The notes beneath the pieces were generated by a model. The model saw nothing but the letters and a program-made list of their open reading frames with translations. It was not told the DNA's origin and did not search any database. From IMG/VR virus record IMGVR_UViG_3300045988_091484: a DNA stretch of 40,479 nt; one strand, 5' to 3'. Source of the stretch: a virus. The position numbers were made by a program, and so were the translations under genes. Every line of letters begins with the position of its first letter. Position 1 is the stretch's first letter. Positions 1-40,479 of the stretch are shown here, piece by piece.

Positions 1-55
1 ATTGGAAATCATGTTGCCGGCGAATACCGGCACGGGGGTTCGAATCCCCCTCTCT
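1..55 (+). repeat. attL core (direct repeat copy 1)
   Basis: Identical to 40425-40479. The repeat may extend beyond both window edges. Confidence 0.95.
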
Positions 56-209: not shown

Positions 210-1268
210 TTAAATTATCTTTTTTAGGGTTTCTTTTACTCCGATTTCGAGATCCGGAATAAAGTGTCCATAGGTATCCATCGTCTGCTGGAATGTGCTA
301 TGGCCAAGTCTATGCTGCAGAGCTTTAAAATTTATACCTTCTTTTAAAAGCAAGGTGGCGTGTGTATGTCGGAGTCCGTGAAAAGTAAAGTCAGGTAGAC
401 CCATTGCGTTAAATGTCCGGCGGGCAATTTTTTCAATATGGTTTCTTTTTATCGGATTTCCCTCGGCATCGCAAAAAAGCAGATTTTCAGGATTGGGAGT
501 TCCTTTCATAGCTGATATGTGGTGCTGTATCAGCTTCATTGTTTCTCGATCTATAGATATTGTCCGGCGGGATGACTTGTTTTTTAAATCGTAAGATAGC
601 TGCTCTTTACCATTCACCCGGATTACAGAGCGCATGACTTTTATGGTTCCCCGCTTAAAATCAATCCCCCATTTACAATCAAGTCCGGAGATTTCTCCCA
701 TGCGGAGCCCGGTATATGCTGCAATCCGAAAATAAAGCTTTGTCCACTCTTCCGGGATTAGATCGAGCATTTCTTTTATTTGTGATTGCCGCAGGATGGA
801 AACTTCCTTCCGTTCTTGCTTGGCATGTTTTATATTTGTTAATGGGGATACAGGAATCGCCCCATCTTCCGCCGCCTGTTTTAGTGCAGCGTGCAGGATT
901 GTGTGCAGATTGTTGACAGTTCGCGGCGATTTTTCTTTCAGTAAATCTGCAAAATATGAGCGGAACATGGCCGGCGTCAGATCAGTTAAGAGTATTCTCC
1001 CGATGCGCGCCTCTGTTATATATTTTTTAATGGTATAGTAGTAATCTCTTTTCGTGACAGGGGATATATTCGGCGTTATAGATTCAAGCCACGCCTGCAT
1101 CCATTCTGACAATGTGACTTTTTGTGTGGCAAGCGGGCATTTTTCTAATAAATCAAGAAATGCAGACCGTTTATCTTTTGCTTCTTTAAGCGTTCGCCCC
1201 ATAAAATAATAACGTTTTTTGTTAATTTGGACGGTCACTTTATATCGACCGTCTTTTCTTTTCGGCAT
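210..1268 (-). CDS. int: Tyrosine-type site-specific integrase
   Basis: 352-aa ORF. Motifs AYTGLRMGEISGL, HGLRHTHATLLL (H-x-x-R) and LGHSTFQQTMDTYGHF (His...Tyr). AAGGAG RBS. Adjacent to attL. Confidence 0.95.
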   Translation of the reverse strand: MPKRKDGRYKVTVQINKKRYYFMGRTLKEAKDKRSAFLDLLEKCPLATQKVTLSEWMQAWLESITPNISPVTKRDYYYTIKKYITEARIGRILLTDLTPAMFRSYFADLLKEKSPRTVNNLHTILHAALKQAAEDGAIPVSPLTNIKHAKQERKEVSILRQSQIKEMLDLIPEEWTKLYFRIAAYTGLRMGEISGLDCKWGIDFKRGTIKVMRSVIRVNGKEQLSYDLKNKSSRRTISIDRETMKLIQHHISAMKGTPNPENLLFCDAEGNPIKRNHIEKIARRTFNAMGLPDFTFHGLRHTHATLLLKEGINFKALQHRLGHSTFQQTMDTYGHFIPDLEIGVKETLKKII

Positions 1269-1577: not shown

Positions 1578-2432
1578 TTATCTGATGATTTTTCCGGAAA
1601 TGAATGGAATAAGTTTATCGTAAATCTTTTTCATTGCTTGCTCAGGAAGTGATATTCCTGTCAGGACACTTGTTTCCTTTACCGGATCCATAATTCTCAT
1701 TTTACTGATTGTTGTTATTTGTGAAATTAATGCTATACTACCTTTTCTCATTTTATCAAATGCGGTGATATGCTTATTAAGTTGTTCTCGTTTTAATTCT
1801 AATGCTGAAATCTGAGAATTCAAAATTTTGTTTTCTTTTGATAAAATAGAAAGCTTAGTTTCCAAAGGAATTATTTTTAAATCACGGTCTGCGTCGTTTA
1901 ATTGCTCTTCTTTTAATTGTTTTAATTGGTCTGATAAATTATCAAAAGCTTTATTAAATTTTTCACGCCGCAAATTATATTCAATATCCATCATTTTATA
2001 TTCTTCTATAAGAGTATTCGTTTTTGCGGCGACACGAGAAAATAGAACTTCTCCTAAATCGACCTCAAACGGTCTTAATACAGTATCTTTTTCTTTCCTT
2101 GATCGCAACGGGAGCACAGCGACAACCCCAGATGAACGCGGGTTATTATCTAAAACAACTGCATAATGGAGCCCGCCTTCTTCTGCACCTGGGCGGAATC
2201 CGAAGTTTACGTTTATGATATCTCCACAGGAATATTTTTTCATAAATTTCGGGGAAAATTTATTTTCCCTATTTAACATATTTTTATAATCTTGGAGCCA
2301 ATAATAAAGAAGAGCTGATTTTTTATAATCATTGCTTTCTGACATAGCAATTAACTTGTCGGAATACTCTTTCATAAGTGCAGTTATATTTTTCTGCAGC
2401 TGCTTTTTGTTTTGAGGGTCTTTGAAATCCAT
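1578..2432 (-). CDS. MazF/PemK-fold toxin-like protein with an N-terminal helical extension and a ~100-aa coiled-coil insertion
   Basis: 284-aa ORF with a GGAG RBS. GDIINVNFGFRPGAEEGGLHYAVVL...VVAVLPLRS...RPFEVDLG (aa 70-127) and KGSIALISQITTISKMRIMD (aa 230-250) match the MazF/PemK strand pattern. The C-terminal helix is ISLPEQAMKKIYDKLIPFI. Heptad-rich aa 128-229 sit between the two halves. Confidence 0.65.
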   Translation of the reverse strand: MDFKDPQNKKQLQKNITALMKEYSDKLIAMSESNDYKKSALLYYWLQDYKNMLNRENKFSPKFMKKYSCGDIINVNFGFRPGAEEGGLHYAVVLDNNPRSSGVVAVLPLRSRKEKDTVLRPFEVDLGEVLFSRVAAKTNTLIEEYKMMDIEYNLRREKFNKAFDNLSDQLKQLKEEQLNDADRDLKIIPLETKLSILSKENKILNSQISALELKREQLNKHITAFDKMRKGSIALISQITTISKMRIMDPVKETSVLTGISLPEQAMKKIYDKLIPFISGKIIR

Positions 2433-8341: not shown

Positions 8342-9217
8342 GTGGGGCGCCAACTTAAACAGGGGTTGGATTATCTCACACTTGATGTTGATTTCTTCGA
8401 AAGCGTAAAGGTCCGGAAAATCAGAAAGGACTGTGGCAATCAATCAATACCAATACTGATCGCGTTACTCTGCAATATTTTTCGAGAAGAGGGATATTAT
8501 GTGGGGTACGATAACGATCTGACATTCCTCATAGCTGAGCAATTCGGCGTGAGCGAGGGTGCAGTAGAGGATACCGTCCAAAAAGCGGTTTTAGTTGAGT
8601 TTTTTGATAGCCACATGTTTCATACCTATGGAATCCTCACTTCACACGGTATTCAGCAGCGTTACTTTGATGCAGTAACCCGCTTGAAAAGAAAATCGGT
8701 GAAGGTCATAGGGGAATTTCTATGCAAAAATATTTCCCCTGGAATAAATACCGATTTCCTCCGTGATAAATCGAATAACCTCTGGAATAAATCCGACAAG
8801 GTAGAGGAAGAGGTAGAGGAAGAGGTAGAGGAAGAGGAAGAGGTAGAGGAAGAGGTAGAGGAAGAGGTAGAGGAAGAGGTAGAGGAAGAGGACAAAGCGT
8901 CTTCTCCGAAAACTGAAATCATCAAAGCATTTTCTTCCTCTTCTCCCGGACTGGAGAAATCAATCAAAAAGTGGATGGACATGAGGAAACAGAGGAAAGC
9001 TTCTGTATCACCGACGGCTCTTAAAAAGAATTTGACACAACTCAAGAAGTTATCAAACGGGAATATAGAGGACGCTGTTCTCATTGTAGAGCAATCAATA
9101 GAAAATCAATGGCTCGGATTTTGGCCGCTCAAAAAACATAAGCGCAAAAAGTCGGAAGGAAGCTATGGACATATCGCTTCTCTGGAAGAGTGGAAAGGTA
9201 TCAAAGACGGATGGTGA
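8342..9217 (+). CDS. Replication initiation-type protein (DUF4373/Lin1244-like N-terminal domain) with an acidic EEEVEE repeat linker
   Basis: GTG start after AAAGGGGGTG. GLDYLTLDVDFFESVKVRKIRKDCG. Sits upstream of the DnaC-like loader. Confidence 0.6.
   Translation: MGRQLKQGLDYLTLDVDFFESVKVRKIRKDCGNQSIPILIALLCNIFREEGYYVGYDNDLTFLIAEQFGVSEGAVEDTVQKAVLVEFFDSHMFHTYGILTSHGIQQRYFDAVTRLKRKSVKVIGEFLCKNISPGINTDFLRDKSNNLWNKSDKVEEEVEEEVEEEEEVEEEVEEEVEEEVEEEDKASSPKTEIIKAFSSSSPGLEKSIKKWMDMRKQRKASVSPTALKKNLTQLKKLSNGNIEDAVLIVEQSIENQWLGFWPLKKHKRKKSEGSYGHIASLEEWKGIKDGW
8801..8890 (+). repeat. In-frame tandem 12-nt repeat GTAGAGGAAGAG (about 7 copies) encoding (VEEE)n
   Basis: Read directly from the sequence. 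Lies inside CDS 8342-9217. Confidence 0.9.
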
Positions 9218-14962: not shown

Positions 14963-16275
14963 AAAACGTGATTGAGCCGGTTATCCGGTTTAAAGAATTT
15001 TCCCGTCGTCAAATGCAAGCGTTTACTTGGTGGTGTCATGGATCCCCTTACTTCAATTACAACGGAATTATAGCGGACGGAAGTATTCGAGCTGGTAAAA
15101 CGGTATCAATGGCTATCAGCTTTGTTTTATGGGCAATGCAAACATACGATAAACAGAACTTTGCTATGTGCGGCAAAACGGTCGGTTCTTTCCGACGTAA
15201 CGTCTGGAATTGGCTCAAACCTGTGTTGTATGCCCGCGGGTATGAAGTGACGGAGTTCCGGACGAGCAATACGATTATCATAGATGACGGAAAATCCGTG
15301 AATTACTTTTACATCTTCGGCGGAAGAGATGAGTCATCTCAAGATTTAATACAGGGCATGACACTTGCCGGGCTGTATTGCGATGAAGTGGCGCTTATGC
15401 CGGAATCATTCGTCAATCAGGCGACAGGACGTTGTTCCGTCCCGGGAGCAAAGATGTGGTTCAACTGCAACCCGGAAAGTCCCATGCATTGGTTTCTCAA
15501 AAACTGGATAGAGAAAAAAGAAGAAAAGAGAATGCTTCATCTCCATTTCACAATGGACGACAATCCTTCTCTTTCCGAAGATGTAAGAGAACGCTATAAA
15601 ACGACTTACAGCGGTGTATTTTATAAGCGTTTTATTTTGGGATTGTGGGTCATGGCGCAGGGCGCCATTTATAAAGACGCTTGGAGCGATGACCTGTATT
15701 TTGATAAAAACCAGCTGGAGTATATTTACAACAATCCGAGATTGTACCGCCGGTATATATCTATCGACTATGGCACCGTCAATCCGATGTGCTTCTTAGA
15801 TATCTGGGACGACGGAGACATTGCGTGGGTGGTAAGAGAATATTATTGGAACAGCCGGGAGGAAGGAAAGCATGAAAAGGATAACAGTCAATACGGTGAT
15901 GATCTTATGGAGTTTATTAATTCAGTAGACTATGCGCCGTCGGCGGTTATCATTGACCCGTCTGCTGCCAGCTTCAAAATAGAAATGAGAAACAGAGGAC
16001 TTCGAGCAAAAGAAACAGTGGATACGATTAATGCGGACAACAGTGTGCTGGAAGGAATCCGCACAGTTAATAAAATGCTCACAAAGAAGAAAATTCGAAT
16101 ATACAAAGAGAACTGCCCTATGCTTGTTAAAGAAATGCAAAGCTACGCATGGGATGAAAAGGCTATACAGAATGGCGGCAGGGAAAAACCGATAAAGGTG
16201 AATGACCACAGCGTCGACGCCCTGCGTTATTATTGTCAGACAGTAATCAGATCAAGGAGGCTTGCGAATGCGTAA
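14959..16275 (+). CDS. Terminase large subunit (PBSX-type)
   Basis: Walker A GSIRAGKTVS, Walker B LYCDEVALMP, and a C-terminal nuclease region with DHSVDALRY. Confidence 0.9.
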   Translation: MKNVIEPVIRFKEFSRRQMQAFTWWCHGSPYFNYNGIIADGSIRAGKTVSMAISFVLWAMQTYDKQNFAMCGKTVGSFRRNVWNWLKPVLYARGYEVTEFRTSNTIIIDDGKSVNYFYIFGGRDESSQDLIQGMTLAGLYCDEVALMPESFVNQATGRCSVPGAKMWFNCNPESPMHWFLKNWIEKKEEKRMLHLHFTMDDNPSLSEDVRERYKTTYSGVFYKRFILGLWVMAQGAIYKDAWSDDLYFDKNQLEYIYNNPRLYRRYISIDYGTVNPMCFLDIWDDGDIAWVVREYYWNSREEGKHEKDNSQYGDDLMEFINSVDYAPSAVIIDPSAASFKIEMRNRGLRAKETVDTINADNSVLEGIRTVNKMLTKKKIRIYKENCPMLVKEMQSYAWDEKAIQNGGREKPIKVNDHSVDALRYYCQTVIRSRRLANA

Positions 16276-18244
16276 GAAAAAAAGAATACAGGTGCCGGCG
16301 GGAAACCCGAAAAGAGCACCCGCCCGCGACGCATTTGCCAACGCTTTGGCGCGAATAGGTGCAGGGATGCCGAGCTTGATGGAGGGAACCACCTATCAAA
16401 TGCAGCGCCTGACACGGAATTATAACTTACTGAACAGTTTATATCGTGAACACTGGATAATGCGTCGGATTGTGGACATTATTCCGGGAGATATGCTGAA
16501 GAATTGGATTACTATCACGACGGAAGTAGATCCGAAGGCGCTGAAGCGAATAGACCTTGTCCTCCGCCGGACGCAGCTCATACAGAAAATCAAAACGGGC
16601 ATGCAGTGGGGACGTCTATATGGTGGCGCGGTAGGCGTCATGCTGATTAAGGGACAGGGGTATGATCTTGCAGAACCTGTTGATTTGGATCGTATAATGC
16701 CGGGGGATTTCTGTGGTATTACGGTTTTAGACCGGTGGAATGGTGTTTCTCCCTCTGGAGAATTGATAGGTGATATCAGCGACCCGGAATATGGGCTTCC
16801 GAAGTATTATCTTGTAACGGATACCGTATCCGGTGTAACTACCAAGATTCATAATTCACGTGTGCTTCGTTTTATCGGAGATGATCTGCCGTACTGGGAG
16901 AGCCAGTCAGAGGAACAGTGGGGCGCCTCGGTGATAGAATCAGTGTTTGACGAGCTGAAGAAGCGTGATAATGTTTCATGGAATATAGCGCAGCTCACGT
17001 TCATGGCGTCGCTTCGTGTACTCAAGATGAACGACTTGGGACAAACGCTATCTGCTACAGACGAACAAACACAGGCGGAATTGTACAAAACGATACAGGC
17101 GCAAAACTGGCTCATGAGTAATAGCGGCGTGCAGGTGCTTGATAAAGAAGACGGTTTTGAAACACACCAGTACACATTCGGCGGCATTTCCGAGGTTTAC
17201 CAGCAGTTCATGATGGATATATCCGGTGCGGCACAGATACCTGCCACAAAGTTATTTGGACGAGCTCCCGCCGGAATGAATGCCACAGGCGAAAGTGACC
17301 TGCAAAATTACTACGACATGATCGGGCAAGAACAGGAATCAAAACTGCGTCCGATACTGAATAAACTGTTGCCGATTCTCTGCATGAGCGTTTTCGGGGC
17401 AGTTCCTGATGATTTAGATTTCGATTTTGACCCGGTATCTGAACCTTCCGACAAAGAGCGGAGCGAGCTGGCTAAAACGGGCACGGAGAACGTGGTAACG
17501 GCACTTAATGCGGGGCTTGTGTCTAAACGTACAGCGCTGCAGGAGCTTAAGCAGCAGAGCGAGCGTACTGGCGTATGGACGAATATCACGGATGAGGATA
17601 TTATGAACACTTCCGATAAAATAGAAGAGGAAGGGGAGTTTGGCGGATTTAGCGGAATGTTGGGGGTGGATGAATCGGAAAGCGATGGAGATGAATTACA
17701 TAAAACATCAAATTCTGTACAAGATAGTAGTAAATGGGTGACTATGAATGGAACCCATGTAAAGGTAGATGAGGACGGTGAGATAAAGAATGGTCCGTTA
17801 AAGGGGCAGAAATATACATCGAAACTCAAGGCTCCGAAATATACGAAGGCGGAAGGATATGAAAAACAGATCGGCTCTCCAATTCATGGTGGATATAAGG
17901 GAATCAATGCTATAAATAAGCTCTTGGAAACGAAAAATGGGTATGTACCTGATGCATTCACCAGATCAGATATAGGAAGCATAGCACTGCCGTGGGGCGA
18001 TGATTTTATGGGGCTCAAGCACATTATCCAAGAAAGACAATCTCAGGGGATTGACACTAATGAGTTCTTGCAGCATTTGCCGGATATCATAGAAGACGGG
18101 AAGCTTGATAGTAGAAATGGAAGGTTTTATATAAGGAAAGATCACTATACAGCAGTAATATCTCCCACCTATTTTGATGATCATTTCACATTCGTACTTA
18201 CTGGATGGGATGAAAATGTTTCTGAAACAACAAAAAAGCACTAA
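16268..18244 (+). CDS. Portal protein (DUF1073-type) with a ~170-aa extra C-terminal domain
   Basis: ATG 16268 follows AGGAGG. LNSLYREHWIMRRIVDIIPGDMLKNW is typical of DUF1073 portals. An acidic/Gly linker is followed by the extra domain from about 17735. Confidence 0.85.
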   Translation: MRKKKRIQVPAGNPKRAPARDAFANALARIGAGMPSLMEGTTYQMQRLTRNYNLLNSLYREHWIMRRIVDIIPGDMLKNWITITTEVDPKALKRIDLVLRRTQLIQKIKTGMQWGRLYGGAVGVMLIKGQGYDLAEPVDLDRIMPGDFCGITVLDRWNGVSPSGELIGDISDPEYGLPKYYLVTDTVSGVTTKIHNSRVLRFIGDDLPYWESQSEEQWGASVIESVFDELKKRDNVSWNIAQLTFMASLRVLKMNDLGQTLSATDEQTQAELYKTIQAQNWLMSNSGVQVLDKEDGFETHQYTFGGISEVYQQFMMDISGAAQIPATKLFGRAPAGMNATGESDLQNYYDMIGQEQESKLRPILNKLLPILCMSVFGAVPDDLDFDFDPVSEPSDKERSELAKTGTENVVTALNAGLVSKRTALQELKQQSERTGVWTNITDEDIMNTSDKIEEEGEFGGFSGMLGVDESESDGDELHKTSNSVQDSSKWVTMNGTHVKVDEDGEIKNGPLKGQKYTSKLKAPKYTKAEGYEKQIGSPIHGGYKGINAINKLLETKNGYVPDAFTRSDIGSIALPWGDDFMGLKHIIQERQSQGIDTNEFLQHLPDIIEDGKLDSRNGRFYIRKDHYTAVISPTYFDDHFTFVLTGWDENVSETTKKH

Positions 18245-37717: not shown

Positions 37718-38140
37718 ATGTGGAAAATCAAAAAAGGGCTTATTTTATCGGCGGTATTGCTGTCGCTGTGGTTGTCGCCATTGCTGTCTGGTTCGCATGC
37801 GCAGGCAAGACAAGTATTCACGATTTACGATACGGAGCTGACGCAGTTAGAACAGAGCTTGACAACGCTCGAACAGCACAGCAAAGACAAGCAGATACTC
37901 TTAGACAAGCAGGCGAAGCAGCTGAGCGAGGCTCAAGAGCAATTGAAAATAGCGAACGAGCAAATCAGGAAATCTCAAGAATTGAACGAACGGACGCAGA
38001 ACTCATTAGAGAAAGCAAATCAATACTTGAAAGAGTACGAGAAAGAGGCGGAACGGAAAATCAAAATTAAAACAAGGCAAAGAAATATGTGGATTGTTAT
38101 CAGTGCAGTAGCCGTGGGAGCGGCCATCTCCCGGAGGTGA
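37718..38140 (+). CDS. Secreted/anchored coiled-coil protein (signal peptide, heptad region, C-terminal TM)
   Basis: GGAGG RBS. LILSAVLLSLWLSPLLSGSHA-QA, a long Q/E/K/L heptad region, then MWIVISAVAVGAAISRR. NCG/CAG/CTG-rich codons resemble those of the other phage genes. Confidence 0.55.
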   Translation: MWKIKKGLILSAVLLSLWLSPLLSGSHAQARQVFTIYDTELTQLEQSLTTLEQHSKDKQILLDKQAKQLSEAQEQLKIANEQIRKSQELNERTQNSLEKANQYLKEYEKEAERKIKIKTRQRNMWIVISAVAVGAAISRR

Positions 38141-38165: not shown

Positions 38166-38204
38166 ATAATTAATTGAACCGTGGCGTATTGCACAAAGCG
38201 GACC

Positions 38205-38252
38205 AGAAAAAGAGTTCTGATGTGGAAATTGCATCAGGGCTCTTTTCTTTTT
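38205..38252 (+). terminator. Strong intrinsic terminator ending the late/lysis operon
   Basis: About 15-bp stem (38205-38222 / 38232-38248), 9-nt loop and a T-rich tail. Confidence 0.7.
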
Positions 38253-38264
38253 AAGGAGGATTAT

Positions 38265-38864
38265 ATGAGATGGTTTTTATATGCGCCGTTACAGTTAATC
38301 ATTATGATAATCTGCTATATTACCAATCCGATTGTGGTATTGTTTGCTGATGAAAACGGTGAGCTCCCCGGATTGTTTTGTCTTTGGCAAACGTGGGACG
38401 ATTCTTGTGACAGCGAAGATTGTGTGACAAAGTATGTTCCGGACTGGATGCGGTATGATTTCTATAAATATTACTGGACAGAAAAGCGATATGATCCGGA
38501 CTACGGACGAGTAATAAAACGGTCAATCAACATTGCACCGTTGCCGCTAATTGACAGATTTAAGCGGTATTGCTGCCGTGTGTTCTGGCTATCAAGAAAT
38601 TGTGCTTACGGTTTCGCTTTAACTCTGTTCGGAGCGACAATCAATCCGGATAATGTAGTAGTCATTGATGATTATAGAGCAGGAGAATCCGAAAGAAATA
38701 TACTTTTTACGCGGGATTTAAAATACTGGAAAATATATAATTCTATGCGAATTCTGAACACGAATTACCGATGGAAAATATATTTAGGATGGAAAATTCA
38801 TAACGTAAAAAGTATACATAGGGCGATGCTGGCATTTCGGGTATGGTTCTGTAAAGCAAATTAA
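38265..38864 (+). CDS. Membrane-anchored Trp/Tyr/Cys-rich hypothetical protein (moron)
   Basis: ATG 38265 follows AAGGAGG. N-terminal TM helix FLYAPLQLIIMIICYITNPIVVLF. Bracketed by terminators. Confidence 0.6.
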   Translation: MRWFLYAPLQLIIMIICYITNPIVVLFADENGELPGLFCLWQTWDDSCDSEDCVTKYVPDWMRYDFYKYYWTEKRYDPDYGRVIKRSINIAPLPLIDRFKRYCCRVFWLSRNCAYGFALTLFGATINPDNVVVIDDYRAGESERNILFTRDLKYWKIYNSMRILNTNYRWKIYLGWKIHNVKSIHRAMLAFRVWFCKAN

Positions 38865-38867
38865 AAC

Positions 38868-38893
38868 GGGGCGGGAAACCGCCCTCTTTTTTT
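38868..38893 (+). terminator. Intrinsic terminator
   Basis: GGGCGG (38869-38874) / CCGCCC (38879-38884), followed by TCTTTTTTTT. Confidence 0.75.
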
Positions 38894-38940
38894 ATTGCAC
38901 GGTATAAAGATAATTTATAATAAAACATCTTGAAAATGTA

Positions 38941-38969
38941 TTGACTAATCAAAGATGATATAGTAATAT
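38941..38969 (+). promoter_or_regulatory. Promoter TTGACT-17-TAATAT for the attR-proximal cassette
   Basis: TTGACT at 38941-38946 and TAATAT at 38964-38969. Confidence 0.5.
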
Positions 38970-39013
38970 ATAATCAAGAAAAGAAAAGTAGTAAAAACGA
39001 GGAGGCAAACAAA

Positions 39014-39214
39014 ATGATTAGAAACATCGGAATCGAAGAAGGCGGAAGAATTTTAACAGATGGAAACCGGACAATAAAATTTGAAAGGGTAGACCGCGGA
39101 TATGAAATGTACGAACTAAGCGGGAACAGATATACCCGCTGCGGAATTGCGAACGCAGACGAAGAAACATCAGATGCGGATTTGTGGGCAATCGCCACAG
39201 ATGATTTGTACTAA
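39014..39214 (+). CDS. Small acidic hypothetical protein
   Basis: 66 aa with an AGGAGG RBS. C-terminus ADEETSDADLWAIATDDLY. Confidence 0.55.
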   Translation: MIRNIGIEEGGRILTDGNRTIKFERVDRGYEMYELSGNRYTRCGIANADEETSDADLWAIATDDLY

Positions 39215-39232
39215 AAGAGAGGAGAAAGAAAA

Positions 39233-40105
39233 ATGAAAGTAAGAATGTATAGAAACTATGATAAATTCCCGTACGAAAGTGATCATCGCGGAAACTTTAA
39301 TGGAAGAATGATATTCACGTTCTTTCGTCCGATTAGCGAGGAGTTCGATTGTATACTGGTCGAGCTCCCGGAAGGATACAAACCATTACCGCTGGAAAAG
39401 TACGAACACTACAGCGGGTGGCAGATGGAGTTAGATCAGGTCGTAAAAAAAGAAGAAGACGGAATGTACAACACTCACGGATTAACTATGAGGTTTTTCG
39501 ATGAGAAAAACTGGGACTATGTAAACGTTCCAAAAGGGTGGCTCGATACTTATGCAAAGGAAGATACGGTGCCGGAACTTTGCGGTCGTGAAAATATACC
39601 GGTTAAATTCATCAGAATTGAATATTCAACGATAAAAGAACTTGCTGAAAAATTTAATTGTGAGTATGTAGAACCGATAGATGAATTTTATGCCAGCTTC
39701 CGGAAAAGAATAAATGAATACATAAGCGCTTATGAAAAATGGAAAGATGTGAAAGAAGATGTTAACCGCAGATCGATTACAACATTCGAAACTCTAAAAG
39801 AAAGAGTTGAACTCAAATCAAACTGGCACGAAAAAACATACATCGGAAATCCGGGCGATTATGTATTAAATGTAGGAGAGAAACGATATCTTATACTCGG
39901 AGTTATAGCTGCAGAAGACACATCACCGAGCAGCGAGCATATGTTTCTCAATGTACAATCTTTTAATCCGGACGACCGGGAAACTCGTTTACCCGCGGTA
40001 GGACTTCCGGAAAACACACCTGCGGAGATAATTGACATGATAGAAAAAGAATCTACACGCCGAGACGTATTAATAAGCAGTCATGGAGAGGAGGACTGGG
40101 GTTAA
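39233..40105 (+). CDS. 290-aa acidic hypothetical protein with no recognisable domain
   Basis: GAGGAG RBS. Long uninterrupted ORF in an AT-rich cargo region. Confidence 0.7.
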   Translation: MKVRMYRNYDKFPYESDHRGNFNGRMIFTFFRPISEEFDCILVELPEGYKPLPLEKYEHYSGWQMELDQVVKKEEDGMYNTHGLTMRFFDEKNWDYVNVPKGWLDTYAKEDTVPELCGRENIPVKFIRIEYSTIKELAEKFNCEYVEPIDEFYASFRKRINEYISAYEKWKDVKEDVNRRSITTFETLKERVELKSNWHEKTYIGNPGDYVLNVGEKRYLILGVIAAEDTSPSSEHMFLNVQSFNPDDRETRLPAVGLPENTPAEIIDMIEKESTRRDVLISSHGEEDWG

Positions 40106-40284
40106 TGATAGAAACAACAAAAAAATCCGCCCCCGGCTGGGGCGGGCACCGTAAAGGGTCCGGCGCTAAAAGAACACTGCCGCCGGGCGCCAGAACACGG
40201 TCTGTCAGGATGACCGACGAAGAATGTGAAAAGGTGAAAGACTTTTTGAAAAAATTGAGAGAAGGAAATGAAAACGGTAGATAA
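40105..40284 (+). CDS. 59-aa basic Gly-rich N-terminus plus ribbon-helix-helix-like small DNA-binding protein (below the ORF-track cutoff)
   Basis: TAATG overlap with the upstream stop. Sequence MIETTKKSAPGWGGHRKGSGAKRTLPPGARTRSVRMTDEECEKVKDFLKKLREGNENGR. Confidence 0.5.
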   Translation: MIETTKKSAPGWGGHRKGSGAKRTLPPGARTRSVRMTDEECEKVKDFLKKLREGNENGR

Positions 40285-40291
40285 AATAAAA

Positions 40292-40317
40292 AGAGCGATA
40301 TCACTATCGCTCTTTTT
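40292..40317 (+). terminator. Intrinsic terminator (perfect 9-bp stem)
   Basis: AGAGCGATA (40292-40300) / TATCGCTCT (40305-40313), followed by TTTT. Confidence 0.8.
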
Positions 40318-40321
40318 AATC

Positions 40322-40344
40322 TGCCCCCACTTCTGCCCCCACTT
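40322..40344 (+). repeat. Tandem TGCCCCCACTT x2 (candidate integrase arm-type sites, P arm)
   Basis: TGCCCCCACTT at 40322-40332 and 40334-40344. Same 11-mer and orientation as at 141-162. Confidence 0.6.
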
Positions 40345-40424
40345 TAAAAAAGTTTATAGCTATTTGCGGGTGTTTATAGATTGATTTTGTCAGATTTTAT
40401 CGAACAATTACGACTATATATCGA

Positions 40425-40479
40425 ATTGGAAATCATGTTGCCGGCGAATACCGGCACGGGGGTTCGAATCCCCCTCTCT
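40425..40479 (+). repeat. attR core (direct repeat copy 2; partial tRNA-Ser 3' half without a tRNA 5' half upstream)
   Basis: Identical to 1-55. The sequence just upstream (40380-40424) has no D arm or acceptor, so this is the duplicated fragment. Confidence 0.95.

What the first reader, a model, noticed from the sequence alone, without database searches (positions are those of the whole stretch)
38941..40317. Autonomous three-gene cassette of unknown function next to attR
The unit lies between the lysis module and attR and is self-contained. It has a TTGACT-17-TAATAT promoter, a 66-aa acidic protein and a 290-aa acidic protein with no recognisable motifs. A translationally coupled (TAATG) 59-aa protein follows, with a basic Gly-rich arm (GWGGHRKGSGAKR) and a ribbon-helix-helix-like RSVRMTDEECEKVKDFLKKL segment. 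A perfect 9-bp-stem terminator closes the unit. The region is AT-richer than the structural genes. Several features fit a prophage-borne defence, toxin-antitoxin-like or anti-defence module not matching any family I can name. These are the position (the classic moron hotspot), independent transcription signals, a small DNA-binding partner coupled to a larger orphan protein, and the strongly acidic character of the first two products.
Basis: inference. Interest (0 to 1): 0.65.

Follow-up and report, generated by a model that had tools for sequence, protein, structure and literature searches.

The report
Variable-cargo accessory operon with constant regulator
The three genes at the end of this gut-bacterium (Dialister) prophage are real, but they are one version of a swappable locus: a fixed promoter and a fixed tiny basic protein frame an ever-changing set of small proteins of unknown function, a layout best known from phage anti-defence (anti-CRISPR-type) operons.

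Summary
All three genes are under purifying selection. None matches Pfam, PHROGs, PADLOC, PDB or BFVD. The only lead is a weak, sub-threshold similarity of the 59-aa family to NCBIfam UrfF ("plasmid repression protein F").

The trio is not a fixed unit. In 74 related loci (some are the same contig fetched twice), the conserved promoter block (38884-38990) and the 59-aa gene are always present. Between them sit at least 14 unrelated cargo families in about 20 arrangements. The 66-aa and 290-aa genes are independent cargo.

The unit sits at three different positions in three phage backbones, once in inverted orientation. A decayed copy lies on a 31-kb conjugative plasmid. The 290-aa gene occurs without the 66-aa gene and without the 59-aa gene, which argues against a toxin-antitoxin system.

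Best reading (about 0.45): an acr-aca-like counter-defence operon with a non-HTH autorepressor. The main rival is a defence or exclusion moron (about 0.25). Function is untested.

The parts
38868..38885 (+). Terminator hairpin after the preceding DUF7338 gene. It marks the left edge of the block shared with other phages.
   Evidence: 7-bp G+C-rich stem followed by a T-run. The DNA homology with L009, L010 and L013 starts here.
38884..38990 (+). Conserved promoter block of the locus. It holds -35 TTGACT (38941-38946), -10 TAATAT (38964-38969) and the invariant TATAATCAAGAAA (38969-38981). Conserved AATCAA copies lie at 38947-38952 and 38972-38977, and these are candidate operator half-sites.
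   Evidence: for the promoter match; the block is present upstream of every 59-aa homologue (76 copies, 58 distinct sequences), whatever the cargo; it is the only exact copy in the window. The operator role is inference.
39014..39214 (+). Cargo gene F2: a 66-aa acidic protein (pI 4.40) with RBS GAGGAGG at 38999-39005.
   Evidence: dN/dS is 0.10. It also occurs alone with the 59-aa gene, and with unrelated cargo F3/F4. A homologous domain is fused to an RHH-like N-terminus in L027:3614-3991 (BLASTP E = 1e-9; weak PF23807).
39233..39766 (+). Cargo gene F1, N-terminal half of the 290-aa protein (residues 1 to about 178). No confident structural model was obtained.
   Evidence: This half is absent from the stand-alone 115-aa relatives in L052 and L053.
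39767..40105 (+). Cargo gene F1, C-terminal domain (residues about 179-290). It is a beta-rich domain followed by a long helix and the invariant GEEDWG tail.
   Evidence: AF2 pLDDT is about 80-90 for residues 181-284 only. The domain exists as a separate 115-aa gene within the same frame in L052 and L053. GEEDWG is kept in the 34%-identical P0078.
40105..40284 (+). The constant 59-aa basic protein (pI 10.2), translationally coupled to the gene before it. It is the proposed Aca-like autorepressor.
   Evidence: the invariant motif is WGGxRKGxGAK+TLPxGA+xR...MTD. Nineteen of 20 family members hit NF041430 UrfF, best E = 5.8e-6, which is below the family cutoff. It is always found with the promoter block. 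DNA binding and repression are inference.
40287..40318 (+). Terminator hairpin that closes the operon and marks the right edge of the shared block.
   Evidence: Homology with other phages ends at about 40322. The hairpin is retained on the plasmid after the 59-aa gene was deleted.
40325..40345 (+). CCCCACTT-type repeats directly after the terminator, also present at 143-163. They are candidate integrase arm-type sites and are context, not part of the operon.
   Evidence: family D9. The function is inference.
40425..40479 (+). attR core, included as context.
   Evidence: Perfect 55-nt direct repeat with 1-55. A tyrosine integrase gene lies at 210-1268 on the minus strand.

Best explanation
The region is one allele of a hypervariable accessory operon carried by phages of human-gut Dialister.

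Shown: a constant frame consists of an insulating terminator, a conserved sigma-70-type promoter block, a terminal 59-aa basic protein and a terminator. This frame encloses a combinatorially shuffled set of small, mostly acidic, soluble orphan proteins. Here the cargo is the 66-aa protein (F2) and the 290-aa protein (F1).

Inferred mechanism:
- The host RNA polymerase fires the promoter as soon as the DNA enters a cell, or at a low level from the prophage.
- The cargo proteins bind and inhibit host proteins, most likely immunity systems such as CRISPR-Cas or restriction. This would work as anti-CRISPR or anti-restriction proteins do.
- The 59-aa protein accumulates last, because it is translationally coupled at the operon end. 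It then binds the conserved promoter block (candidate sites: the AATCAA repeats and TATAATCAAGAAA) and shuts the operon down, as Aca proteins do in acr-aca operons.
- The terminator protects attP and int from read-through.
For: 1. Constant frame, variable cargo. Every one of the 49 IMG/VR loci with a 59-aa homologue has the promoter block 0.3-1.4 kb upstream, and the further metagenome loci do too. Between promoter and 59-aa gene lie at least 14 unrelated families in about 20 arrangements.
2. Autonomy. The shared block runs from terminator to terminator. It sits after the lysis genes in most loci. In a podovirus-like backbone it lies just upstream of the small terminase gene. In a P22-portal backbone it is inverted between a 179-aa gene and the small terminase gene.
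3. Cargo properties typical of inhibitor-type anti-defence proteins. They are 66-135 aa (F1 is 290 aa) and many are very acidic (pI 4.05-5.1). They are hydrophilic and match no Pfam, PHROG or PADLOC model. Their families are extremely narrow: only two full-length clusters of F1 among 1.84 billion representatives.
4. Deeply diverged alleles occupy the same slot. The two F1 forms are 33-34% identical and each is under purifying selection. The C-terminal domain is also used on its own.
5. A regulator-cargo fusion exists. In L027, which lacks a 59-aa gene, an RHH-like domain is fused to the 66-aa domain. This parallels Acr-Aca fusions such as AcrIIA1 (bioRxiv 10.1101/787200).
6. The plasmid copies that lost the 59-aa gene also lost the upstream half of the promoter.
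7. The cargo is shared between phages and a conjugative plasmid that also carries ArdC.
8. Non-HTH regulators of such operons have precedent: Aca14 (RHH; bioRxiv 10.64898/2026.07.27.740549) and Reg of p576 (PMC8708921).
9. Dialister invisus CRISPR spacers target gut phages (PMC3460193).
Against: - No cargo protein resembles a known anti-defence protein. No dedicated Acr or anti-defence library was available.
- No structural model good enough for fold assignment was obtained for the 290-aa protein (pLDDT 47 and 55).
- DNA binding by the 59-aa protein is unproven. It matches no HTH or RHH model, and its only database lead is below threshold.
- At 290 aa, F1 is large for an Acr-type inhibitor.
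- The position at the prophage end, with its own promoter, suits lysogen-expressed defence genes equally well.
- The co-loss of promoter half and regulator on the plasmid is essentially a single evolutionary event.
Confidence: 0.45

Rival explanations
1. Prophage- or plasmid-borne defence or superinfection-exclusion moron. The operon is expressed in the lysogen, and its cargo (for example the 290-aa protein, with the 66-aa protein as modulator) blocks or aborts infection by competing phages. The 59-aa protein tunes its expression.
For: - It has the classic moron position, with its own promoter and terminators and an inverted orientation in one backbone.
- Its presence among related phages is patchy.
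- On the plasmid it lies in a region with AbiEii, Fic and RelB/YoeB genes.
- GC content is lower than in the structural genes.
Against: - No PADLOC model hits.
- The cargo proteins are small and soluble. They have no enzymatic or membrane signature, and all GRAVY values are negative. Most known defence effectors and Sie proteins are different in these respects.
- A shared regulator and promoter framing shuffled unrelated small genes is not a described layout for defence islands.
Confidence: 0.25
2. Three-component toxin-antitoxin or addiction module of the omega-epsilon-zeta type. The 290-aa protein is the toxin, the 66-aa acidic protein the antitoxin and the 59-aa protein the transcriptional regulator.
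For: - Sizes and charges resemble omega/epsilon/zeta (from memory: 71, 90 and 287 aa).
- Gene order is small acidic protein then large protein, with translational coupling.
- In L027 the 66-aa domain is fused to an RHH-like domain, the canonical architecture of a type II antitoxin.
- Truncated copies of the 290-aa gene exist.
Against: - The 290-aa gene is kept intact and under purifying selection without the 66-aa gene (L019, L021, L026, L045).
- It is also kept without the 59-aa gene (L011), and without either on the most widespread carrier (L001-L006; P0032 is indexed in 182 blocks).
- The 66-aa gene also occurs alone or with unrelated cargo.
- No Walker A motif and no toxin family match was found.
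Confidence: 0.07
3. The frame is a phage housekeeping or regulatory unit, and the cargo genes are passengers that have nothing to do with immunity. For example, the 59-aa protein could be an excision or directionality factor, or a small regulator of phage development. The cargo could be host-takeover or lysogenic-conversion factors unrelated to immunity.
For: - In the commonest context the 59-aa gene is the last gene before attP and int.
- The other two contexts lie next to the small terminase gene.
- Small basic proteins next to att sites are often recombination directionality factors (general knowledge).
Against: - The gene is tied to the promoter block 0.3-1.4 kb upstream in all contexts. 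Two of these contexts show no integrase gene within the 4 kb of flanking DNA examined.
- It matches no excisionase or HTH_17 model.
- It is dispensable in L027-type phages, where another DNA-binding domain replaces it.
Confidence: 0.18

Closest known systems
acr-aca (anti-CRISPR / anti-CRISPR-associated) operons, including the RHH-type Aca14 and bifunctional AcrIIA1
   Same: - A strong promoter is followed by variable small orphan, often acidic genes and then a conserved small regulator gene at the 3' end.
- The locus is scattered over different positions in unrelated phages and on plasmids.
- Regulator-inhibitor fusions occur.
(bioRxiv 10.64898/2026.07.27.740549; bioRxiv 10.1101/787200)
   Different: - No cargo gene has a known Acr homologue or a demonstrated activity.
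- The regulator is neither an HTH nor a recognisable RHH protein. It has a Gly-rich basic arm, one strand and one helix.
- One cargo protein is 290 aa.
- The host is a Negativicute (Dialister).
Reg(p576)-controlled establishment-gene operons of pLS20-family conjugative plasmids (PMC8708921)
   Same: A small non-HTH repressor curtails a promoter that drives genes needed just after DNA entry. Part of the present locus sits on a conjugative plasmid.
   Different: - No sequence relationship was tested or found.
- The plasmid copies here have lost the 59-aa gene.
- The locus is mainly phage-borne.
omega-epsilon-zeta three-component toxin-antitoxin system (pSM19035)
   Same: The sizes, charges and order of the three products look alike. 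Omega also has a basic disordered arm before its DNA-binding strand (from memory).
   Different: - Partners do not obligatorily co-occur.
- There is no zeta-type P-loop.
- The 66-aa gene pairs with other cargo.

Phage morons (promoter-gene-terminator insertions, as in lambdoid phages such as HK97)
   Same: - It is an autonomous transcription unit bounded by terminators.
- It differs in composition from the surrounding genes.
- It is present or absent between conserved neighbours.
- It is inverted in one backbone.

   Different: Here the regulatory frame itself is conserved and the content is swapped, rather than a single fixed gene being inserted.
NCBIfam NF041430 UrfF, 'plasmid repression protein F'
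   Same: Nineteen of 20 members of the 59-aa family align to profile positions of about 25-60 of 68.
   Different: Scores are about 20 bits against a cutoff of 100, so these are not members of the family. No literature on UrfF was found.

Membership tests
acr-aca-type anti-defence operon | A conserved regulator gene at the 3' end of an operon whose upstream small genes vary between elements | tested here: met
   At least 14 cargo families in about 20 arrangements lie upstream of the 59-aa gene in 74 loci.
acr-aca-type anti-defence operon | The regulator binds repeats in its own promoter and represses it | not testable with these tools
   Indirect evidence only. The promoter block always co-occurs with the 59-aa gene, and conserved AATCAA and TATAATCAAGAAA elements flank a variable spacer. 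The plasmids lost both together.
acr-aca-type anti-defence operon | The regulator has a recognised DNA-binding domain (HTH, or RHH for Aca14) | tested here: not met
   No Pfam HTH or RHH hit for any of the 20 members. No PDB relative was found. Only a sub-threshold UrfF hit was seen.
acr-aca-type anti-defence operon | At least one cargo gene is a known or demonstrated inhibitor of a defence system | tested here: inconclusive
   No hit in Pfam, PHROGs, PDB or BFVD. No Acr or anti-defence library was available, and no experiment was possible.
Type II / three-component toxin-antitoxin system | The toxin gene is always accompanied by its antitoxin gene | tested here: not met
   The 290-aa gene occurs without the 66-aa gene (L019, L021, L026), without the 59-aa gene (L011), and without either (L001-L006).
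Type II / three-component toxin-antitoxin system | The toxin belongs to a known toxin fold or family (for example the zeta P-loop kinase) | tested here: not met
   No family or PDB hit. No Walker A motif is visible in the sequence.
Known anti-phage defence systems (PADLOC-DB 2.0) | The proteins match a defence-system model | tested here: not met
   Zero hits at E <= 1 for the three proteins and for the DUF7338 neighbour.
Ribbon-helix-helix superfamily (for the 59-aa protein) | An N-terminal beta-strand followed by two helices, detectable by RHH models | tested here: not met
   No RHH model hit. By eye, only about 22 residues follow the putative strand, which is room for one helix. The partner-fusion protein in L027 has a weak RHH_10 hit at E = 0.005.
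Phage moron | An autonomous promoter-to-terminator unit, present or absent between conserved neighbours, with deviant composition | tested here: met

The most novel reading that the evidence does not exclude
The 59-aa UrfF-like protein, with its basic arm followed by one strand and one helix, is a new kind of Aca-type autorepressor that is neither HTH nor canonical RHH. It marks a hypervariable counter-defence locus in phages and plasmids of Dialister (Negativicutes). By guilt by association it would point to at least 14 previously unseen families of immunity inhibitors. These include a two-domain 290-aa protein whose C-terminal domain works on its own.
Probability: 0.35. Interest if true: 0.7.

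Novelty: new member of a known kind. Interest (0 to 1): 0.55.

Why it matters
If the reading is right, the 59-aa gene and its promoter are a ready-made search handle. They could be used to find anti-defence proteins in an abundant but genetically intractable group of human-gut bacteria, and they already point to at least 14 orphan families. It would also add to the recent finding that regulators of such loci need not be helix-turn-helix proteins.

Even if the function turns out to be defence, one point stands. A fixed regulatory frame with shuffled cargo is shared by three phage backbones and has decayed on a conjugative plasmid. That is a clear example of how accessory genes are exchanged among mobile elements in the gut.

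Tried and rejected
Searches that found nothing:
- Pfam, PHROGs, PADLOC and NCBIfam on the three proteins gave only the sub-threshold UrfF hit. Pfam and PHROGs on 17 neighbouring and cargo proteins added nothing useful.
- BLAST against the phage and plasmid record collections, at DNA and protein level, gave no match.
- The GTDB representative genomes hold no relative of the 290-aa protein.
- An exhaustive profile search of 1.84 billion representatives found only one close cluster, one 34%-identical full-length relative, one distant 99-aa fragment (P0086) and fragments of these.
- Profile searches against PDB sequences found nothing.
- Rfam and tRNA scans of the window found nothing. The att core is only a partial tRNA.

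Structure prediction:
- Two AlphaFold2 runs gave pLDDT 47 and 55. Only residues 181-284 are confident.
- Three Foldseek searches gave no significant fold match. The single exception is the uncharacterised homologue A0A8S5LKC5.

Literature: no paper mentions UrfF or 'plasmid repression protein'.

Ideas rejected:
- A fixed three-gene system.
- A toxin-antitoxin module.
- A canonical RHH fold for the 59-aa protein.
- A multi-operon regulon within this phage. The promoter motifs occur only once in the window.

Inverted repeats in the promoter are short and AT-rich, so I do not rely on them.
Full report
**1. What is in the window**

The window is a complete prophage bounded by a perfect 55-nt direct repeat at 1-55 and 40425-40479. 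By eye the repeat reads as the anticodon-to-acceptor part of a tRNA-Ser(GGA)-like gene. ARAGORN finds no complete tRNA.

The window encodes the following:
- a tyrosine integrase (210-1268, minus strand)
- a double-HTH repressor
- a DNA methylase
- a large terminase
- a portal protein
- a major capsid protein
- a baseplate J protein

A lysis region follows, with a weak XhlA/holin match and a DUF7338 gene at 38181-38864. Chromosomal genes next to a related prophage are 81% identical to Dialister genes, so the host is a human-gut Dialister (Negativicutes).

**2.

- The ORFs are at 39014-39214 (66 aa), 39233-40105 (290 aa) and 40105-40284 (59 aa).
- The stop of the 290-aa gene and the start of the 59-aa gene overlap as TAATG.
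- The promoter match is at 38941-38969 and the hairpins at 38868-38885 and 40287-40318.
- pI values are 4.40, 4.93 and 10.2.
- GC is 40.6% against 45.6% for the structural genes.
- Pairwise dN/dS across relatives is 0.18 (290 aa), 0.10 (66 aa) and 0.38 (59 aa), so all three are real genes.

The promoter as a bare consensus match is not above chance. Its conservation across related loci is what makes it convincing.

**3. No known family**

The three proteins hit nothing in Pfam, PHROGs or PADLOC. The only lead is a weak match of the 59-aa protein to NCBIfam NF041430 UrfF, 'plasmid repression protein F' (E = 4.8e-4, 20 bits against a cutoff of 100). Nineteen of 20 family members reproduce it, with a best E of 5.8e-6. 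I found no literature on UrfF.

The 290-aa family is very narrow. A word-indexed search found 73 clusters, all at least 71% identical. An exhaustive profile search of 1.84 billion representatives added one full-length relative at 34% identity (P0078), one distant 99-aa fragment (P0086) and fragments of these.

There is no match in the annotated phage or plasmid records, in GTDB representative genomes or in PDB sequences. AlphaFold2 gave pLDDT 47 and then 55, with confidence only for residues 181-284 (beta strands plus a long helix). Foldseek found no fold match. The one exception is an uncharacterised homologue in BFVD.

**4. Context of the 290-aa gene**

- *Conjugative plasmid.* The commonest carrier is a plasmid of about 31 kb with Rep3, a MobA/MobL relaxase, VirB4/TrbL, ParA, Fic, ArdC and AbiEii. 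Homology to the window there covers only 39212-40145 plus the terminator. The plasmid therefore keeps the first 40 nt or so of the 59-aa ORF and has lost the rest. An unrelated 114-aa gene lies upstream.
- *Second plasmid variant.* This one has 91-aa, 70-aa and 289-aa genes and no 59-aa gene.
- *Prophages.* The block shared with the window runs from terminator to terminator, 38868-40322. It lies after different lysis modules and next to different chromosomal sites.
- *P22-portal backbone.* The trio is inserted in the opposite orientation, between a 179-aa gene and the small terminase gene.

So the unit is autonomous and mobile.

**5. The trio is not a fixed unit**

The 59-aa family is found in 49 IMG/VR loci, against 14 for the 290-aa family. 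In every one of those loci, and in the metagenome loci fetched earlier, the promoter block (window 38884-38990) lies 0.3-1.4 kb upstream of the 59-aa gene. That makes 76 promoter copies and 58 distinct sequences.

The genes in between fall into at least 14 unrelated families in about 20 arrangements:

| Family | Size | Note |
|---|---|---|
| F1 | 290 aa | window cargo |
| F2 | 66/70 aa | window cargo |
| F3 | about 110 aa | pI 4.2 |
| F4 | 100 aa | |
| F5 | 91 aa | pI 4.05 |
| F6 | 135 aa | |
| F7 | 99 aa | |
| F8 | 90 aa | |
| F9-F14 | 70-119 aa | rare; one or two loci each |

Examples of arrangements are F2-F1, F5-F2-F1, F7-F1, F2 alone, F2-F3-F4, F6-F3(-F4) and F8 alone. The 74 loci counted include some contigs fetched twice. 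The simple gene caller I used also misses some F2 copies, so the exact counts are approximate. The tblastn tables show the same picture independently.

None of the cargo families has a Pfam or annotated PHROG match.

The locus occupies three positions in three backbones:
- after the lysis genes, next to attP and int
- upstream of the small terminase gene in a podovirus-like backbone
- inverted next to the small terminase gene in the P22-portal backbone

**6. Further anatomy**

- F1 has two deeply diverged alleles (33-34% identity) in the same slot. Its C-terminal domain occurs as a separate 115-aa gene within the same frame. This matches the only confidently modelled part of the protein.
- In L027, which has a P0078-type F1 and no 59-aa gene, the 66-aa domain is fused to an N-terminal RHH-like domain. 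BLASTP gives E = 1e-9 for the 66-aa part, and PF23807 is weak at E = 0.005.
- Within the promoter, ATTGAC, two AATCAA copies 25 nt apart and TATAATCAAGAAA are at least 95% conserved. The spacer between them exists in several alleles.
- Both plasmid variants lack the 59-aa gene, and both have replaced or deleted the upstream half of this block.
- The motifs occur only once in the window.

**7. Interpretation**

The combination found here is:
- a conserved promoter and a conserved small basic terminal gene
- shuffled small orphan cargo, often acidic
- spread over unrelated phages and a conjugative plasmid
- a regulator-cargo fusion

This is the layout of acr-aca anti-defence operons. Aca regulators were long thought to be HTH proteins, but an RHH-type Aca14 has just been described (bioRxiv 10.64898/2026.07.27.740549). 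RHH repressors also control establishment genes of pLS20-family plasmids (PMC8708921). AcrIIA1 is a repressor-inhibitor fusion (bioRxiv 10.1101/787200). Dialister invisus CRISPR spacers do target gut phages (PMC3460193).

I therefore favour a counter-defence operon with an Aca-like autorepressor, at a confidence of about 0.45. The anatomy is shown. The mechanism is inferred and nothing functional was tested.

**8. Rivals**

- *Defence or exclusion moron (about 0.25).* It fits the position and the autonomy. It does not fit the small soluble orphan cargo, the shared regulator, or the absence of PADLOC hits.
- *Omega-epsilon-zeta-like toxin-antitoxin system (about 0.07).* It fits the sizes, charges and the L027 fusion. 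It fails the co-occurrence test: F1 persists without F2, without the 59-aa gene, and without both. F2 also pairs with other cargo.
- *Housekeeping role for the 59-aa protein, such as a directionality factor (about 0.18 together with other non-immunity functions).* This is hard to square with its constant link to the promoter in contexts that show no integrase gene within the 4 kb of flanking DNA examined.

**9. Novelty and score**

The kind of locus is known. This instance is new in its regulator family, its 14 or more cargo families and its host clade, and it is absent from every annotated resource searched. I rate it a new member of a known kind and score its interest at 0.55. The locus would become clearly more interesting if the 59-aa protein is shown to be a new type of Aca, or if any cargo gene is shown to inhibit a defence system.

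Noticed in passing
window 1-55 and 40425-40479; also 143-163 and 40325-40345: The att core is a perfect 55-nt repeat that reads as the 3' part of a tRNA-Ser(GGA)-like gene. CCCCACTT-type repeats lie just inside both prophage ends and are candidate integrase arm-type sites.
   Followed up: partly
window 38181-38864: A 227-aa DUF7338 gene (PF24027, E = 9e-34) lies between the lysis genes and the operon and is closed by its own terminator. It is present only in some related phages (L013, L021, L023, L043, L086), so it looks like a separate moron.
   Followed up: partly
window 37718-38140 and 37720-38070: Two ORFs (140 aa and 116 aa) overlap in different frames. Each has an N-terminal hydrophobic segment and coiled-coil-like sequence. 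A similar overlapping pair is seen in L019 and L026. This may be an embedded spanin-like pair, which would make sense for a host with two membranes.
   Followed up: no
window 1578-2432 (minus strand): A 284-aa protein with a PemK/MazF-like toxin domain (E = 1e-10) lies in a very AT-rich stretch (32% GC) next to the integrase gene. It may be an accessory or toxin-like gene at the left end of the prophage.
   Followed up: no
window 16262-18244: The portal protein carries a C-terminal PBECR1 nuclease-like domain (PF18809, E = 5e-9).
   Followed up: no
L001-L006, L011 (metagenome contigs of about 31 kb): This is a very prevalent conjugative plasmid in human-gut samples. It carries Rep3, a MobA/MobL relaxase, VirB4/TrbL, topoisomerase, ArdC, AbiEii, Fic and sometimes RelB/YoeB. 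It also carries a decayed copy of the locus. PLSDB holds no relative of its 290-aa gene (tblastn); the plasmid backbone itself was not searched.
   Followed up: partly
L019:6982-7698, L028:5164-5829, L030:5164-6000: In many loci a Cys-rich gene of 221-278 aa overlaps the end of the 59-aa gene. By eye its C-terminus looks AP2-like, but there is no Pfam hit. L030 has an internal duplication of the Cys-rich repeat.
   Followed up: no
window 8787-8906: A tandem 12-nt repeat (GAGGAAGAGGTA-like, about 9 copies) lies inside ORF 8342-9217 and would encode a Glu/Val-rich repeat.
   Followed up: no
L026:7480-8352: A transposase-like 290-aa ORF lies directly downstream of the locus in one phage contig.
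   Followed up: no
L032:22-1443 and 1658-2146; L027:390-878: The podovirus-like backbone carries a DNA methylase gene (PF00145) and a small methyltransferase-like gene about 2-4 kb upstream of its variable locus.
   Followed up: no
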